Shown here piece by piece: positions 46,991 to 50,949 of a stretch of 64,000 bases of DNA. This DNA is from Trueperaceae bacterium (GTDB lineage: Bacteria; Deinococcota; Deinococci; Deinococcales; Trueperaceae). The position numbers were made by a program, and so were the translations under genes. Each line of letters begins with the position of its first letter. Positions within the stretch are counted from its first letter, which is position 1. The stretch covers positions 32,001 to 96,000 of the forward strand of contig JAXHNB010000005.1 in NCBI GenBank assembly GCA_034520945.1, given 5' to 3'. A model generated the notes under the pieces. It was not told where the DNA came from, searched no databases, and saw only the letters and a program-made list of their open reading frames with translations.

Positions 46991-48841
46991 CTATTTCATG
47001 AACACGTACGCGGACCCCTCGTTCGTGTTGTACGCGGACCCCTCGTTCGTGTTCAGGAGATCATCGATGTAGGCGCCGATGATGGCGTAGTCCCCCTCGA
47101 TCGCGACGGACCAGCCGAAGCGGTCGCCGTCGGCGGCGTCGCTGGCGGTGAGCTTGTCGACCTCCGCCCAGCTGTCGCCGCTGCGCGTGAACGCGTACGC
47201 GGACCCCTCGTCCGCGCCGGTCAGATCATCTCTGCGGGCGCCGATGATGGCGTAGTTTCCATCGATCGCCACGGAATTGCCGAAGAGGTCGTAGTCGGCG
47301 GCGTCGCTGGCGGTGAGCTTGTCGACCTCCGCCCAGCTGTCCCCGTTGCGCTTGAACGCGTACGCGGACCCCTCGTTGTTGCCGGTCAGATCATCGCTGG
47401 AGGCGCCGATGATGGCGTAGTCCCCCTCGATCGCCACCGAATTGCCAAAGAAGTCGTTGTCTGCCGCGTCGCTGGCGGTGAGCTTGTCGACCTCCGCCCA
47501 GCTGTCGCCGTTGCGCGTGAACGCGTACGCGGACCCCTCTTCCGCGCCGGTCAGATCATCTCTGAGGGCGCCGATGATGGCGTAGTCCCCATCGATCGCG
47601 ACGGAATTGCCGAAGAGGTCGTCGTCGGCGGCGTCGCTGGCGGTGAGCTTGTCGACCTCCGCCCAGCTGTCGCCGTTGCGCGTGAACGCGTACGCGGACC
47701 CCTCGTTGTTGCCGGTGAGATCATCTTTGGAGGCGCCGATGATGGCGTACTCCCCGTCGATCGCCACGGACCAGCCGAAAGCGTCCCTGTATGCGGCGTC
47801 GCTGGCGGTGAGCTTGTCGATCTCCACCCACGTGTCGCCGTTGCGCTTGAACGCGTACGCGGACCCCTCGTCCTCGCCGGTCAGATCATCGCTGGAGGCG
47901 CCGATGATGGCGTAGTCCCCATCGACCGCCACAGAATGGCCGAAGCGGTCTCCGGTGGCGGCGTCGCTGGCGGTGAGCTTGTCGATCTCGACCCAGCTGT
48001 CCCCGCTGCGCTTGAACGCGTACGCGGACCCCTCGTTGAGGCCGGTGAGATCATCTTTTTCGGCGCCGATGATGGCGTAGTCCCCATCGATCGCCACCGA
48101 ACTGCCGAAGCGGTCGTTGTCTGCGCCGTCGCTGGCGGTCAGCTTCGCGGGCGTGGTCTGGAACGGCTCCGCAACCTCCAGCATGAACGCCTGCGTATCC
48201 TCGAGTCCCCCCTCATCCAGCGCCGTGAGCGTGATCGTCACGCCGCCCGTCCCGAACGGCGCGGGCGTGATCCGCAGGGTTCGATCCGCACCCGAAGCGA
48301 GGATCTCGATGTCCGCGTCGGCCACCAACGTCGGATCGTCCGATACGCCGGTCACGGTGACGCCGCTCGGATTCTCATCGCTGACGGAGAACGGAATCTC
48401 GATCGCATTCCCCCTGATCGTGCGTTGATCGTCGATCCCGGACAGCACCGGCGGCGCGTTCGGCTCATCGACGGTGACGCTCGCGTTCGCCTGGACGTTT
48501 TCACTCCGACCGTCGCTCACGCTCAGGATCGGCGCGTACGATCCAGTCGCGGCATAGGCGTGCGTTTGCAGGGTCGTCGCGCCGCAGTCCTCGATCGTGT
48601 ACTCGCTCGTACCGTCGCCGTCGGTATCGAGGGTGCACGAAAGCACGTCCCCATCGGGATCACTCACACTCCACGAAAACGTGACCGTCTCCCCGCTCGC
48701 CACACGCGACGGGGAAGCCTCAAAGCTGGTGATGCTCGGCGGCGAACCCACCGAAACCCCACACTGAGCCGCCATCAGCAAGAGCCCAAGCAGTGCAACA
48801 AGTAGCGCGACAACGCGCCGGTCAGTCAGCGAAACGAACAT
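46991..48841 (-). CDS. Secreted/lipoprotein with PKD/Ig-like domains and a 7-repeat FG-GAP beta-propeller (copy 1)
   Basis: GGAGG RBS, signal peptide ending MAAQC, and seven 55-aa repeats KLTASD..D.D.FG.SVAIDGDYAIIGA..DD. Confidence 0.9.
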   Translation of the reverse strand: MFVSLTDRRVVALLVALLGLLLMAAQCGVSVGSPPSITSFEASPSRVASGETVTFSWSVSDPDGDVLSCTLDTDGDGTSEYTIEDCGATTLQTHAYAATGSYAPILSVSDGRSENVQANASVTVDEPNAPPVLSGIDDQRTIRGNAIEIPFSVSDENPSGVTVTGVSDDPTLVADADIEILASGADRTLRITPAPFGTGGVTITLTALDEGGLEDTQAFMLEVAEPFQTTPAKLTASDGADNDRFGSSVAIDGDYAIIGAEKDDLTGLNEGSAYAFKRSGDSWVEIDKLTASDAATGDRFGHSVAVDGDYAIIGASSDDLTGEDEGSAYAFKRNGDTWVEIDKLTASDAAYRDAFGWSVAIDGEYAIIGASKDDLTGNNEGSAYAFTRNGDSWAEVDKLTASDAADDDLFGNSVAIDGDYAIIGALRDDLTGAEEGSAYAFTRNGDSWAEVDKLTASDAADNDFFGNSVAIEGDYAIIGASSDDLTGNNEGSAYAFKRNGDSWAEVDKLTASDAADYDLFGNSVAIDGNYAIIGARRDDLTGADEGSAYAFTRSGDSWAEVDKLTASDAADGDRFGWSVAIEGDYAIIGAYIDDLLNTNEGSAYNTNEGSAYVFMK

Positions 48842-49122
48842 GGTGACCTCCACACACGAAGTCGCAGCGAAAAAACGCAAACGAAACTACGACACTATAG
48901 GTCACACATCGCGCTCATTGCAAACACATAAGGAACACCTCCGGCGACGCCGCCAGCGCCACCAAGACCGAGGGCAAGAAGTCCGAGGCGAGCAAGAGCT
49001 CCGACTGACCGATCGCGCGCCCGGGCCTCGAACGGCGTCGCCACGCGCCGGGGCCGCGGCTTAGGGCGTGTTCACACGTCGAGTCCAACCCGGCGTGCCA
49101 ACCACCGTCGCTCGCTGACGCC

Positions 49123-50949
49123 CTACTTCAGGAAGACGTATGCGGACCCCTCGTTCGTGCCGGTGAGATCATCTTTTTCGGCGCCGATGATGGCGTAGTT
49201 TCCATCGATCGCCACGGAGAAGCCGAAGCGGTCGCCGTCTCCCGCGTCAGTGGCGGTGAGCTTGTCGATCTCCACCCAGCTGTCGCCGCTGCGTTGGAAC
49301 ACGTATGCGGACCCCTCGTTCGTGCCGGCGAGATCATCGAATTGGGCGCCGATGATGGCGTAGTCCCCCTCGATCGCCACCGAATTGCCAAAGAAGTCGT
49401 TGTCTGCGGCGTCGCTGGCGGTGAGCTTGTCGATCTTTACCCAGCTGTCGCCGTTGCGCTTGAACGCGTACGCGGACCCCTCGTTCGCGCCGGCGAGATC
49501 ATCTCTGGAGGCGCCGATGATGGCGTAGTCCCCCTCGATCGCCACCGAATTGCCAAAGAAGTCGTTGTCTGCGGCGTCGCTGGCGGTGAGCTTGTCGATC
49601 TTTACCCAGCTGTCGCCGCTCCGCTTGAACGCGTACGCGGACCCCTCGTCCGTACCGGTGAGATCATCGAGGCCGGCGCCGATGATGGCGTAGTCCCCAT
49701 CGATCGCCACGGACCCGCCGAAGAGGTCTCCGTCTCCGCCGTCGGTGGCGGTGAGCTTGTCGATCTCCACCCAGCTGTCGCCGCTGCGTTGGAACACGTA
49801 CGCGGACCCCTCGTTCGCGCCGGCGAGAACATCGTATAGGGCGCCGATGATGGCGTAGTCCCCATCGATCGCCACCGAACTGCCGAAGCGGTCGCCGTCT
49901 GCGGCGTCGCTGGCGGTGAGCTTGTCGATCTCGATCCACGTGTCCCCGCTGCGCTTGAACGCGTACGCGGACCCCTCGTTCGAGCCGGTGAGATCATCTC
50001 CGTCGGCGCCGATGATGGCGTAGTCCCCATCGATCGCGACGGACCGGCCGAAGAGGTCGTCGTCTGCGGCGTCGCTGGCGGTGAGCTTGTCGATTTCGAC
50101 CCAGCTGTCCCCGCTGCGCTTGAACGCGTACGCGGACCCCTCGTCCGTGCCGGTGAGATCATCTCTTTCGGCGGTGATGATGGCGTAGTCCCCATCGATC
50201 GCCACCGAACTGCCGAAGCGGTCGTTGTCTGCGCCGTCGCTGGCGGTCATCTTCGCGGGCGTGGTCTGGAACGGCTCCGCAACCTCCAGCATGAACGCCT
50301 GCGTATCCTCGAGTCCCCCCTCATCCAGCGCCGTGAGCGTGATCGTCACGCCGCCCGTCCCGAACGGCGCGGGCGTGATCCGCAGGGTTCGATCCGCACC
50401 CGAAGCGAGGATCTCGATGTCCGCGTCGGCCACCAACGTCGGATCGTCCGATACGCCGGTCACGGTGACGCCGCTCGGATTCTCATCGCTGACGGAGAAC
50501 GGAATCTCGATCGCATTCCCCCTGATCGTGCGTTGATCGTCGATCCCGGACAGCACCGGCGGCGCGTTCGGCTCATCGACGGTGACGCTCGCGTTCGCCT
50601 GGACGTTTTCACTCCGACCGTCGCTCACGCTCAGGATCGGCGCGTACGATCCAGTCGCGGCATAGGCGTGCGTTTGCAGGGTCGTCGCGCCGCAGTCCTC
50701 GATCGTGTACTCGCTCATGCCGTCGCCGTCGGTATCGAGGGTGCACGAAAGCACGTCCCCATCGGGATCACTCACACTCCACGAAAACGTGACCGTCTCC
50801 CCGCTCGCCACACGCGACGGGGAAGCCTCAAAGCTGGTGATGCTCGGCGGCGAACCCACCGAAACCCCACACTGAGCCGCCATCAGCAAGAGCCCAAGCA
50901 GTGCAACAAGTAGCGCGACAACGCGCCGGTCAGTCAGCGAAACGAACAT
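49123..50949 (-). CDS. Secreted/lipoprotein with PKD/Ig-like domains and a 7-repeat FG-GAP beta-propeller (copy 2)
   Basis: Paralog of 46991-48841 with the same architecture and 165-nt repeat period. Confidence 0.9.
   Translation of the reverse strand: MFVSLTDRRVVALLVALLGLLLMAAQCGVSVGSPPSITSFEASPSRVASGETVTFSWSVSDPDGDVLSCTLDTDGDGMSEYTIEDCGATTLQTHAYAATGSYAPILSVSDGRSENVQANASVTVDEPNAPPVLSGIDDQRTIRGNAIEIPFSVSDENPSGVTVTGVSDDPTLVADADIEILASGADRTLRITPAPFGTGGVTITLTALDEGGLEDTQAFMLEVAEPFQTTPAKMTASDGADNDRFGSSVAIDGDYAIITAERDDLTGTDEGSAYAFKRSGDSWVEIDKLTASDAADDDLFGRSVAIDGDYAIIGADGDDLTGSNEGSAYAFKRSGDTWIEIDKLTASDAADGDRFGSSVAIDGDYAIIGALYDVLAGANEGSAYVFQRSGDSWVEIDKLTATDGGDGDLFGGSVAIDGDYAIIGAGLDDLTGTDEGSAYAFKRSGDSWVKIDKLTASDAADNDFFGNSVAIEGDYAIIGASRDDLAGANEGSAYAFKRNGDSWVKIDKLTASDAADNDFFGNSVAIEGDYAIIGAQFDDLAGTNEGSAYVFQRSGDSWVEIDKLTATDAGDGDRFGFSVAIDGNYAIIGAEKDDLTGTNEGSAYVFLK

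What the first reader, a model, noticed from the sequence alone, without database searches (positions are those of the whole stretch)
46991..50949. Tandem FG-GAP propeller proteins with a constant stalk and a position-specific hypervariable, shuffled head: candidate diversified surface-receptor system
Seen: the two genes are almost identical over promoter, signal peptide and Ig-like stalk (about 3 mismatches by eye over about 830 nt, 48068-48905 vs 50176-51013). Their 7 x 55-aa propellers differ at roughly 70 of about 375 residues. Across all 14 repeats the scaffold is nearly fixed and variation is concentrated at repeat positions 9-10, 12, 15 (S/H/W/N/R/G/F), 29-30 (EK, SS, SK, LR, RR, YI, ER, DG, LY, GL, SR, QF) and 36-37. 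These sites often use codons rare in this GC-rich genome (AAA, AGA, CTA). Patches move between non-equivalent repeats: AEKDDLTG in copy 1 repeat 1 and copy 2 repeat 7; IDGNY in copy 1 repeat 6 and copy 2 repeat 7; DNDFFGNSVAIEG in copy 1 repeat 5 and copy 2 repeats 5-6. WAEVD has spread through four repeats of copy 1 only. Established: FG-GAP repeats form 7-bladed propellers, as in integrin alpha. Inference: repeat-level gene conversion plus diversifying selection builds a variable binding face on a constant anchor (adhesin, or phage/predator evasion). No reverse transcriptase or dedicated recombinase is present nearby.
Basis: partly seen in the sequence, partly recalled or inferred. Interest (0 to 1): 0.8.

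Follow-up and report, generated by a model that had tools for sequence, protein, structure and literature searches.

The report
Tandem propeller genes with variable heads
Two side-by-side copies of a bacterial surface-protein gene keep an almost identical stalk, but their seven-bladed propeller heads differ at a few fixed positions per blade on one face, a real pattern that many related propeller proteins also show.

Summary
Two minus-strand genes (46991-48841, 49123-50949) form a head-to-tail tandem duplication of a 2.1-kb unit. The signal peptide and PKD/Ig stalk differ at 2 of 696 nt. The 7 x 55-aa FG-GAP_2 propellers differ at 72 of 364 residues.

Eight positions per blade (10, 12, 15, 29, 30, 36, 37, 45), defined independently on 25 other proteins, give dN 0.90 against dS 0.21. 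The other 47 codons give dN/dS 0.37. Seven of the eight lie in or beside the two long loops that share one propeller face in the AlphaFold2 model.

Nucleotide-identical patches, rare codons included, sit in non-equivalent blades, and 52 of 120 non-hypervariable site pairs fail the four-gamete test. So blades exchange DNA. The genome holds no DGR reverse transcriptase, template repeat or silent cassette.

The pair plus an IS701 remnant is a 4.8-kb insertion, missing from 3 of 3 same-genus genomes examined.

My reading: ordinary homologous gene conversion among blades plus diversifying selection on a ligand-binding face. The ligand is unknown.

It belongs to a known kind: highly repetitive propellers (Pereira and Lupas 2022), which evolve like fungal het-d/het-e WD40 repeats. 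This scan noted the same pattern on other DNA. Interest is moderate.

The parts
46991..48841 (-). Copy 1 gene: signal peptide with Cys, PKD domain, Ig-like (Big_9) domain, 7-blade FG-GAP_2 propeller (616 aa from the ATG)
   Evidence: ORF; Pfam; AlphaFold2 pLDDT 88.0
49123..50949 (-). Copy 2 gene, same architecture (608 aa from the ATG)
   Evidence: ORF; Pfam; AlphaFold2 pLDDT 89.2; Foldseek best propeller matches are integrin alpha chains
46994..48145 (-). Copy 1 propeller head: 7 blades of 165 nt
49126..50253 (-). Copy 2 propeller head: 7 blades of 165 nt
48146..48841 (-). Copy 1 signal peptide and stalk; differs from copy 2 at 2 nt, both in one Thr/Met codon
50254..50949 (-). Copy 2 signal peptide and stalk
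46800..48931 (.). Tandem duplication unit 1 (2132 nt, including the 24-nt duplication)
   Evidence: boundary alignment
48932..51039 (.). Tandem duplication unit 2 (2108 nt); right boundary approximate to a few bases
48932..49008 (+). Duplicated fragment: last 77 nt of the convergent FmdB zinc-ribbon gene, carried between the two copies. It marks an in-situ tandem duplication.
   Evidence: 1 mismatch against 46800-46876; for the gene's family
47006..47053 (-). 24-nt in-frame tandem duplication (NTNEGSAY x2) in the 2-3 loop of blade 7 of copy 1. Modelled as a low-confidence loop with the fold kept.
   Evidence: 212-nt contigs in X1 and X2 with 0 differences; residues 597-604 pLDDT < 50, last strand 609-615 present
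48894..48923 (-). Promoter-like site (TTGCAA, 18 nt, TATAGT) upstream of copy 1. Copy 2 shares the -10 hexamer but has TTGCGG at -35.
   Evidence: consensus match only; for the two differences at 48918/48919
51191..51625 (+). IS701-family transposase remnant (C-terminal part only)
   Evidence: NCBIfam NF033540 E 3.3e-35, profile positions 283-363 of 363, below the curated cut-off
46877..51738 (.). Lineage-specific insertion (about 4.8 kb) between the zinc-ribbon gene and the glutamine cyclotransferase gene
   Evidence: in 3 of 3 same-genus genomes examined the two genes are adjacent; lower GC and stalk GC3 0.80 against 0.91-0.97

Best explanation
A gene for a secreted, probably lipid-anchored surface protein was inserted here, beside an IS701 element. 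It encodes a signal peptide with a conserved Cys, a PKD domain, an Ig-like domain and a seven-bladed FG-GAP_2 beta-propeller. The gene then duplicated in tandem, in place.

The 14 blades (165 nt each, 77-96% identical) act as one pool. Ordinary homologous recombination copies short tracts between blades, within a gene and between the two genes. Recombination also keeps the two stalks identical. Diversifying selection keeps about eight positions per blade different. These sit in the 4-1 and 2-3 loops and at the start of strand 1, on one face of the propeller.

The result is two paralogues with the same anchor and different binding faces. The face most likely binds a variable surface ligand (glycan or protein) of other cells or particles.

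Shown: the tandem duplication, the insertion, the propeller fold, the position-specific excess of non-synonymous change, and the shared DNA patches. Inferred: recombination as the mechanism of exchange, selection rather than targeted mutation, and the binding role.
For: - Duplication: precise head-to-tail units carry a 77-nt piece of the neighbouring gene. Depth figures fit two copies per genome.
- Decoupling of stalk and head: copy 1 against copy 2 is 99.6% identical in the stalk and 80.2% in the head. Either copy against P0002 is 87% in the stalk and 82% in the head. P0002 against P0003 is 96% in the stalk and 73% in the head.
- Stalk against flank: the stalk has 2 nt differences in 696, none synonymous. 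The non-coding 3' flank has 5 in 114. This points to recent homogenisation of the stalk.
- Selection: the top eight positions by entropy in 25 other highly repetitive family members are 15, 12, 29, 30, 37, 10, 36 and 45. On the window's 14 blades these give dN 0.90 against dS 0.21 (ratio 4.3). The other 47 codons give 0.37.
- A count of distinct bases per column, which recombination cannot inflate, gives 1.94 changes per nt at codon positions 1-2 of these sites. Third positions elsewhere give 0.51 (Fisher p 0.029).
- Near-identical blade pairs differ by whole-codon swaps such as CTC>ACG and AGA>TTC.
- Face: model strands occupy repeat positions 13-20, 23-28, 39-47 and 50-2'. The loops 3-12 and 29-38 therefore share one face. 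pN/pS is 1.15 in these loops, 0.19 in the opposite turns and 0.56 in strands.
- Exchange: four patches of 15-39 nt are identical, rare codons included, in non-equivalent blades. Four-gamete failures: 117 of 231 site pairs, and 52 of 120 without the hypervariable codons. In the PHI-like test, 0 of 2000 permutations reached the observed value at k=3.
- Extracellular setting: family members carry T9SS sorting, dockerin, cadherin and PKD domains.
- Residues: Tyr, Trp and Arg are prominent at positions 12, 15 and 29 in the 25 relatives.
Against: - No ligand, expression data or long reads are available.
- I could not read model coordinates, so the one-face claim rests on strand topology, not on measured distances.
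- Position 45 and the variable positions 52-54 are not on that face.
- Whole-blade pN/pS is below 1: 0.73 over all pairs (dN/dS) and 0.81 for the five closest pairs.
- The PHI-like signal fades at wider spans for the 14-blade set (k=5 p 0.038; k=8 p 0.22).
- Recurrent mutation could add to the four-gamete failures.
- The 120 relatives were chosen by similarity to a consensus-like query, so they over-represent repetitive propellers.
- DNA of the close homologues P0002 and P0003 could not be obtained, so no tree-based, recombination-aware site test was run.
- X1 and X2 are one sample, probably the source of the assembly.
Confidence: 0.62

Rival explanations
1. Neutral reading. The blades were amplified or homogenised recently, and the variable positions are simply unconstrained loop residues that drift. 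There is no selection for diversity and no special binding role.
For: Highly repetitive propellers are common: 29 of the 120 best hits have a median internal blade identity of 0.60 or more. Whole-blade dN/dS is 0.73. The variable positions are also the low-conservation positions of the family.
Against: At the eight independently defined positions, dN is 4.3 times dS. These positions carry 1.94 minimal changes per nt, against 0.51 at third positions elsewhere. Neutral sites should not exceed the synonymous rate. Whole-codon swaps occur in blades that are otherwise 92-96% identical. Tyr, Trp and Arg are enriched at positions 12, 15 and 29 in 25 relatives.
Confidence: 0.13
2. Imported head. The duplication is very recent, which would explain the identical stalks. 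One head was then replaced by recombination with a diverged allele from another strain, rather than diverging by shuffling in place.
For: The two heads differ from each other (80%) as much as each differs from the head of P0002 (82%), although the stalk of P0002 is only 87% identical. Several blades are closest to positional equivalents in P0002: c2r2-P0002r2 0.87, c2r7-P0002r7 0.89, c1r6-P0002r6 0.87. The locus is itself an acquired insertion.
Against: Blades 1 and 5 keep 95% and 93% nucleotide identity between the copies. Copy-specific patches have spread within a copy: WAEVD in four blades of copy 1, YVFQRSG in two blades of copy 2. The 3' flank has diverged 3-4% while the stalk has not. 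That fits an older duplication with later stalk homogenisation better than a very recent duplication.
Confidence: 0.15
3. Programmed diversification: a diversity-generating retroelement, or recombination from silent cassettes as in pilE/pilS or vlsE.
For: Variation is position-specific. Hypervariable codons are A-rich (AAT, AAC, AAA and AGA are frequent) and use codons rare in this genome.
Against: The genome has three reverse-transcriptase matches. One is a group II intron maturase (GIIM). One is Drt4-like and sits beside a BrxL-type protease on another contig. One is a fragment about 495 kb away. blastn of all 14 blades against the genome finds no further copy above 69% identity. Changes are not confined to template adenines: position 15 has TGG, CGG, GGG and TTC beside AAT.
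Confidence: 0.03
4. Assembly artefact: two strain variants of one gene were laid in tandem by the assembler.
For: This is a metagenome-type assembly (10 contigs, contamination 5.13%). Short-read contigs break inside the repeats, and no listed piece spans the locus.
Against: Stalk contig depth is about twice the flank depth and about equals the sum of the two distinct 3'-end contigs, in both runs. Two strains with one copy each would give flank depth equal to stalk depth. The junction carries a 77-nt copy of the neighbouring gene's end. The 24-nt duplication is present in short-read contigs.
Confidence: 0.05

Closest known systems
Highly repetitive ('recently amplified') beta-propellers of the VCBS / FG-GAP supercluster (Pereira and Lupas 2022, PMC9218822; passages read)
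   Same: Median internal blade identity is 0.78, above their 60% criterion. FG-GAP/alpha-integrin members made up 2% of their data set and occurred in bacteria and archaea. They raise innate immunity or self-recognition as possible roles.
   Different: In a term search of that paper, the words hypervariable, positive selection, gene conversion and recombination do not occur. Added here: eight hypervariable positions on one face, DNA exchange between blades, and a tandem pair with an identical stalk.
WD40 repeats of the fungal het-d / het-e (nwd) NLR family (Paoletti et al. 2007, PMC1805685, abstract read; Dyrka et al. 2014, PMC4986451, passages read)
   Same: Repeats are highly alike internally. 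They are exchanged within and between paralogues (concerted evolution). A few positions per repeat on the propeller's interaction surface are under diversifying selection.
   Different: This is a different propeller superfamily (FG-GAP_2, not WD40). It is a secreted bacterial protein on a PKD/Ig stalk, not a cytoplasmic NACHT/NB-ARC receptor. It has eight positions per repeat rather than four. All 4 close homologues have 7 blades, so no repeat-number polymorphism was seen. There is no RIP.
Integrin alpha-subunit beta-propeller
   Same: Seven four-stranded blades. The best Foldseek propeller matches are integrin alpha chains (E about 1e-14, TM normalised to target 0.63-0.67). From established knowledge (recalled, not tested here), integrins bind ligand through the 4-1 and 2-3 loops of the upper face, the same loops that vary here.
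   Different: Sequence identity is 14-18%. The 1-2 hairpins here are two-residue turns with no DxDxDG calcium loop. No beta subunit or thigh/calf legs. The blades are near-identical.
Diversity-generating retroelement targets and cassette-based antigenic variation
   Same: Variation is position-specific on a constant scaffold of a surface protein.
   Different: No reverse transcriptase of that type, no template repeat and no silent cassettes. The changes are not adenine-specific.

Membership tests
FG-GAP_2 (Pfam PF14312) propeller proteins | Match to the family model above the curated cut-off, in repeated stretches | tested here: met
   420.5 and 415.2 bits (cut-off 23), 7 stretches each
FG-GAP_2 (Pfam PF14312) propeller proteins | Closed seven-bladed beta-propeller fold | tested here: met
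   AlphaFold2 pLDDT 89.2 and 88.0, with 4 strands in each 55-aa repeat. Foldseek matches integrin alpha propellers. No solved structure of the family was found by sequence; there were only 2 weak matches, to designed Cake proteins.
Highly repetitive beta-propellers (Pereira and Lupas 2022) | Median sequence identity between blades above 60% | tested here: met
   0.78 for both copies; the median over the 120 best hits is 0.49
Concertedly evolving, diversifying repeat receptors (het-d/het-e type) | Repeats exchanged within and between paralogues | tested here: met
   Nucleotide-identical patches in non-equivalent blades of both genes. Four-gamete failures 52 of 120 without the hypervariable codons. 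PHI-like test p 0.0005 to 0.22 depending on span.
Concertedly evolving, diversifying repeat receptors (het-d/het-e type) | A few codons per repeat with dN above dS, located on the interaction face | tested here: met
   dN 0.90 against dS 0.21 at eight independently defined positions. Location rests on strand topology only.
Concertedly evolving, diversifying repeat receptors (het-d/het-e type) | NLR architecture (NACHT or NB-ARC NTPase plus effector domain) | tested here: not met
   Pfam finds a signal peptide region, PKD, Big_9 and FG-GAP_2 only. It works like this family but is not a member.
Concertedly evolving, diversifying repeat receptors (het-d/het-e type) | Repeat-number polymorphism between alleles | tested here: not met
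   7 blades in 4 of 4 close proteins (copy 1, copy 2, P0002, P0003). The sample is small.
Integrin alpha propeller (classical FG-GAP, calcium-binding) | DxDxDG calcium loops in the 1-2 hairpins of the lower face | tested here: not met
   The 1-2 turn is two residues (G-D/N/E) in all 14 blades
Diversity-generating retroelement target | Cognate reverse transcriptase and a template repeat near the variable region | tested here: not met
   Reverse-transcriptase matches are a group II intron maturase, a Drt4-like enzyme and a fragment, all at least 490 kb away or on another contig. No further blade copy in the genome.
Diversity-generating retroelement target | Substitutions confined to template adenines | tested here: not met
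   Third-position and non-A changes occur at positions 10, 15 and 29
Bacterial lipoprotein | Lipobox [LVI][ASTVI][GAS]C at the end of the signal peptide | tested here: inconclusive
   The sequence is LMAAQC, with Gln at -1. Homologues have TAGQC or TAAQC, and two have the canonical TAC. The motif definition is recalled, and no predictor was run.

The most novel reading that the evidence does not exclude
Highly repetitive FG-GAP_2 propellers may be a widespread, unrecognised class of prokaryotic variable binding proteins. On this reading they are an extracellular counterpart of the diversifying repeat receptors of fungal NLRs. Near-identical scaffold codons would serve as recombination handles, and Tyr/Trp/Arg-rich positions on one face as the specificity code. 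The tandem pair here would be a self-contained 14-blade cassette pool that produces new binding faces in a population without any dedicated enzyme.
Probability: 0.25. Interest if true: 0.7.

Novelty: new member of a known kind. Interest (0 to 1): 0.45.

Why it matters
The locus is a clean natural experiment. Two paralogues in one genome share a stalk that is 99.6% identical, yet their heads are as different as those of relatives whose stalks have diverged by 13%. This shows that head and stalk evolve under different regimes.

The same eight positions vary in 25 other highly repetitive family members from unrelated sources, so the pattern is a property of a large, uncharacterised family. FG-GAP_2 or PF14312 is named in only 4 papers of the searched library, and none of the 3 listed concerns its function.

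If the variable face binds ligands, these proteins would be a ready-made scaffold with a defined specificity code, and a marker of surface conflict or recognition in microbial mats and salterns. The limits are that the kind is already known in outline, that this scan had noted it elsewhere, and that no ligand or phenotype is known.

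Tried and rejected
- **DGR or silent cassettes:** rejected.
- **DNA of the close homologues P0002 and P0003, for tree-based tests:** not obtainable. The best of 128 family genomes is 53% identical. No same-genus genome has a close copy. The JGI metagenome scan gave only 44% and 56% relatives.
- **Short-read contigs as a test of the assembly:** they break in the repeats and no listed piece spans the locus. The absence of cover at 48170-48837 only reflects the collapsed stalk contig being placed on copy 2.
- **Runs X3 and X4:** they hold only diverged relatives. 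X3 has a 758-nt stalk contig with 73 differences. They say nothing firm about habitat.
- **Model coordinates:** they are not in the script box, so I could not compute a distance-based clustering of the variable residues.
- **MetH scan for the organism's name:** uninformative. The best named match is 65%, to a Trueperaceae MAG. Together with P0075 (a Trueperaceae MAG, 50%), this only suggests Deinococcota.
- **A loose literature search:** it returned unrelated papers. The strict one found 4 papers that hold both FG-GAP and hypervariable. By their titles and abstract openings, two concern genomic islands of giant viruses, one eukaryotic integrin adhesion complexes and one algal virus resistance; none concerns bacterial blades.
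- **Calcium binding by the DDLTG loop:** considered and not claimed, because the motif does not fit DxDxDG.

Full report
**What is there**

On the minus strand lie two ORFs, 46991..48880 and 49123..50988. The likely start of each is the ATG at 48841/50949. It follows a GGAGG and is where the close homologues P0002 and P0003 begin.

Each protein has a hydrophobic signal peptide that ends in a conserved Cys, a PKD domain and a weak Big_9 Ig-like match. Each also has seven FG-GAP_2 (PF14312) repeats, scoring 420.5 and 415.2 bits against a cut-off of 23.

AlphaFold2 models are confident: pLDDT 89.2 for copy 2 and 88.0 for copy 1. They show two beta-sandwich domains followed by a seven-bladed propeller. 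Apart from one giant flagellar chain at rank 1, the best Foldseek matches in the PDB are integrin alpha propellers (E about 1e-14, 14-18% identity). No member of the family is solved, judging by sequence.

**The duplication is real and local**

Alignment of the two regions gives head-to-tail units, 46800-48931 and 48932-51039. Each unit starts with the last 77 nt of the convergent FmdB zinc-ribbon gene (46535-46876). A fragment of that gene therefore sits between the two copies. This is what an in-situ tandem duplication leaves behind.

Within the signal peptide and stalk proper (696 nt) there are 2 differences, both in one Thr/Met codon, and none is synonymous. The non-coding 3' flank has 5 differences in 114 nt. 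By my rough arithmetic, about seven synonymous differences would be expected in the stalk at that rate. I therefore infer that the stalks were homogenised after the duplication.

Short-read contigs of two runs from one salt-pan sample, probably the source of the assembly, cannot span the repeats. Their depths still fit two copies per genome:

| Run | Stalk contig | Copy 1 3' end | Copy 2 3' end | Flanks |
|---|---|---|---|---|
| X1 | 40.3 | 20.5 | 17.4 | 30.7 (left), 22.2 (right) |
| X2 | 55.2 | 33.1 | 24.5 | 29.1 (left), 36.4 and 29.6 (right) |

Two strains with one copy each would give flank depth equal to stalk depth.

**The locus is an insertion**

In 3 of 3 same-genus genomes examined (G005, G004, G009), the order metH, ABC permease, ABC ATPase, zinc-ribbon gene, glutamine cyclotransferase, tmk, Nif3 is kept. 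The zinc-ribbon gene lies directly beside the cyclotransferase gene.

Here about 4.8 kb (46877-51738) lies between them. It holds the two propeller genes and the C-terminal remnant of an IS701 transposase (51191-51625; NF033540, E 3.3e-35). GC is lower than in the surroundings (0.64-0.66 against about 0.71). Stalk GC3 is 0.80, against 0.91-0.97 in five neighbouring genes.

No close copy exists in the 128 family genomes searched; the best is 53% identical.

**The blades**

Both heads are seven repeats of exactly 55 aa, with a Tandem Repeats Finder period of 165 nt. For alignment my script removed the second copy of a 24-nt tandem duplication in blade 7 of copy 1. Both blade 7s end at position 46.

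Blade-to-blade nucleotide identity is 77-96%. Between the copies, only blades 1 (95%) and 5 (93%) keep positional likeness. The other five positional pairs are 83-86%, no better than non-equivalent pairs. The closest remaining pairs are within a copy: copy 1 blades 4 and 6 at 96%, copy 2 blades 3 and 6 at 93%, and copy 2 blades 5 and 6 at 92%.

**Where the variation lies**

Twenty-one codon positions are fixed to a single codon in every blade that has them. Positions 10, 12, 15, 29, 30, 36 and 45 carry 4 to 9 different codons.

To avoid choosing sites after seeing the data, I defined the variable set on other proteins. Of the 120 best hits, 29 have a median internal blade identity of 0.60 or more. 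I set aside the two window copies, P0002 and P0003, which left 25. In these 25, the eight positions of highest entropy are 15, 12, 29, 30, 37, 10, 36 and 45, with Tyr, Trp and Arg prominent at 12, 15 and 29.

| Measure on the window's 14 blades | Eight variable positions | Other 47 codons |
|---|---|---|
| dN | 0.90 | 0.069 |
| dN/dS | 4.3 (against dS 0.21 over all codons) | 0.37 |
| Minimal changes per nt, codon positions 1-2 | 1.94 | 0.28 |
| Minimal changes per nt, third positions | not computed | 0.51 |

The minimal-change count uses distinct bases per column, so recombination cannot inflate it. Fisher's test on it gives p 0.029.

Against this, whole-blade dN/dS is 0.73, and pN/pS for the five closest blade pairs is 0.81. 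The excess is therefore local, not general. In those close pairs many differences are whole-codon swaps, such as CTC>ACG, TCC>CAA and AGA>TTC.

**One face**

In both models each repeat has strands at positions 13-20, 23-28, 39-47 and 50 to 2 of the next repeat. Two-residue turns sit at 21-22 and 48-49. In an up-and-down four-stranded blade, the loops 3-12 and 29-38 must share one face, and the two tight turns must share the other.

Positions 10, 12, 29, 30, 36 and 37 are in those loops, and 15 is at the loop end of strand 1. Position 45 and the moderately variable 52-54 are not. pN/pS is 1.15 for the loop face, 0.19 for the turn face and 0.56 for strands.

I could not read coordinates, so this is topology, not measured clustering. 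From established knowledge (recalled), the 4-1 and 2-3 loops form the ligand-binding upper face of integrin alpha propellers.

The 24-nt duplication in copy 1 lengthens the 2-3 loop of blade 7. It is modelled as a disordered loop with the last strand kept. It is present without differences in short-read contigs of both runs.

**Exchange between blades**

- AEKDDLTG, 24 nt, in copy 1 blade 1 and copy 2 blade 7;
- IDGNY, with GGA, in copy 1 blade 6 and copy 2 blade 7;
- DNDFFGNSVAIEG, 39 nt, in copy 1 blade 5 and copy 2 blades 5 and 6;
- WAEVD in four blades of copy 1 only.

Of the pairs of biallelic informative sites, 117 of 231 fail the four-gamete test. Without the hypervariable codons, 52 of 120 fail.

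A PHI-like permutation test shows that neighbouring sites are more compatible than distant ones. For 14 blades, p is 0.0005 at k=3, 0.038 at k=5 and 0.22 at k=8. For 12 full blades, p is 0.0075-0.010. Tracts are therefore short.

At protein level, 29-30 pairs recur in different blades of relatives: QF in copy 2 blade 6 and P0002 blade 1; LR in copy 1 blade 4 and P0002 blades 4, 6 and 7.

**Stalk and head are decoupled**

| Pair | Stalk identity | Head identity |
|---|---|---|
| Copy 1 vs copy 2 | 99.6% | 80.2% |
| Either copy vs P0002 | 87% | 82% |
| P0002 vs P0003 | 96% | 73% |

Between positional blades of the two copies, pS at non-hypervariable codons is 0.149. That is about three times the divergence of the non-coding flank. 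Point mutation since the duplication therefore does not explain the heads. Overwriting by other blades, or import of a foreign head, is needed.

**No dedicated machinery**

The genome has three reverse-transcriptase matches:
- a group II intron maturase with a GIIM domain;
- a Drt4-like enzyme beside a BrxL-type Lon protease on another contig;
- a fragment.

All are at least 490 kb away or on another contig. blastn of all 14 blades finds no other copy above 69% identity. Changes are not limited to adenines. The only mobile-element trace nearby is the IS701 remnant.

**Codon usage**

Hypervariable codons have GC3 0.72, against 0.905 for scaffold codons. They use AGA, AAT and CTA, which are at 0.00 in five neighbouring genes, and AGT and AAA, which are at 0.04 and 0.05. 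I read these as young, not yet adjusted codons. This is inference.

**Comparison with what is known**

Pereira and Lupas (PMC9218822; passages read) showed that propellers with more than 60% internal identity are widespread. FG-GAP/alpha-integrin members made up 2% of their set. They suggested roles in immunity or self-recognition. Their text does not contain the words hypervariable, positive selection, gene conversion or recombination.

The mechanism matches that described for the fungal het-d/het-e WD40 repeats: exchange of repeats within and between paralogues, plus diversifying selection on four surface residues per repeat (PMC1805685, abstract; PMC4986451, passages). This protein is not an NLR.

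Searches for FG-GAP with hypervariable found 4 papers. By their titles and abstract openings, two concern giant-virus genomic islands, one eukaryotic integrin adhesion complexes and one algal virus resistance; none concerns bacterial blades. PF14312 or FG-GAP_2 occurs in 4 papers, and none of the 3 listed concerns its function. Subscription journals are not covered by these searches.

Earlier notes of this scan describe the same pattern on other DNA (e1-7659758, e1-5306782, e1-5409339). They agree with my reading, but they are unchecked AI notes and not independent evidence.

**Verdict**

The finding is a well-resolved member of a known kind, not a new system. The tandem pair with identical stalks is its most useful feature. 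The ligand and the selective agent remain unknown.

Noticed in passing
G000:C5:616971-618091 (locus L014, about 2158-4101): A third FG-GAP_2 gene with a similar Ig-like stalk. Its blades are much more diverged (best 69% nucleotide identity to the window's blades), and blade sequence appears in three different reading frames. It is either a multiply frameshifted pseudogene or local assembly error.
   Followed up: partly
locus L012 (G000:C8:177004-180501), ORFs 18-1028 and 1072-2616: A BrxL-type Lon-like protease fragment is followed by a 514-aa reverse transcriptase. Its best match is the antiviral Drt4 model (E 1.6e-43, below the curated cut-off). This is probably a phage-defence island.
   Followed up: partly
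locus L011 (G000:C5:834697-838338), ORF 1114-2544: Group II intron reverse transcriptase/maturase with RVT_1 and GIIM domains.
   Followed up: partly
window 50949-50850 and 48841-48742 (signal peptides): The signal peptide ends in LMAAQC, with Gln at -1, rather than a canonical lipobox. Homologues P0038, P0079 and P0100 have TAAQC or TAGQC, while P0075 and P0101 have the canonical TAC. This may be an unusual lipoprotein signal in this lineage.
   Followed up: no
window 48918-48919 against 51026-51027: The two copies share the -10-like TATAGT but differ in the -35-like hexamer: TTGCAA upstream of copy 1, TTGCGG upstream of copy 2. The two paralogues could be expressed at different levels.
   Followed up: no
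proteins P0034, P0031, P0020, P0013, P0030, P0011: These are 13- or 14-blade FG-GAP_2 proteins from other sources. One is labelled a Thorarchaeota MAG; several others in the hit list carry T9SS sorting domains. They show the same fixed scaffold and the same variable positions. Many blades have DDDNG or DDDKG where the window's blades have DDLTG.
   Followed up: partly
window 46535-46876: An FmdB-family zinc-ribbon protein with a long Ser/Lys/Glu-rich tail. Its last 77 nt were co-duplicated with the propeller gene.
   Followed up: partly
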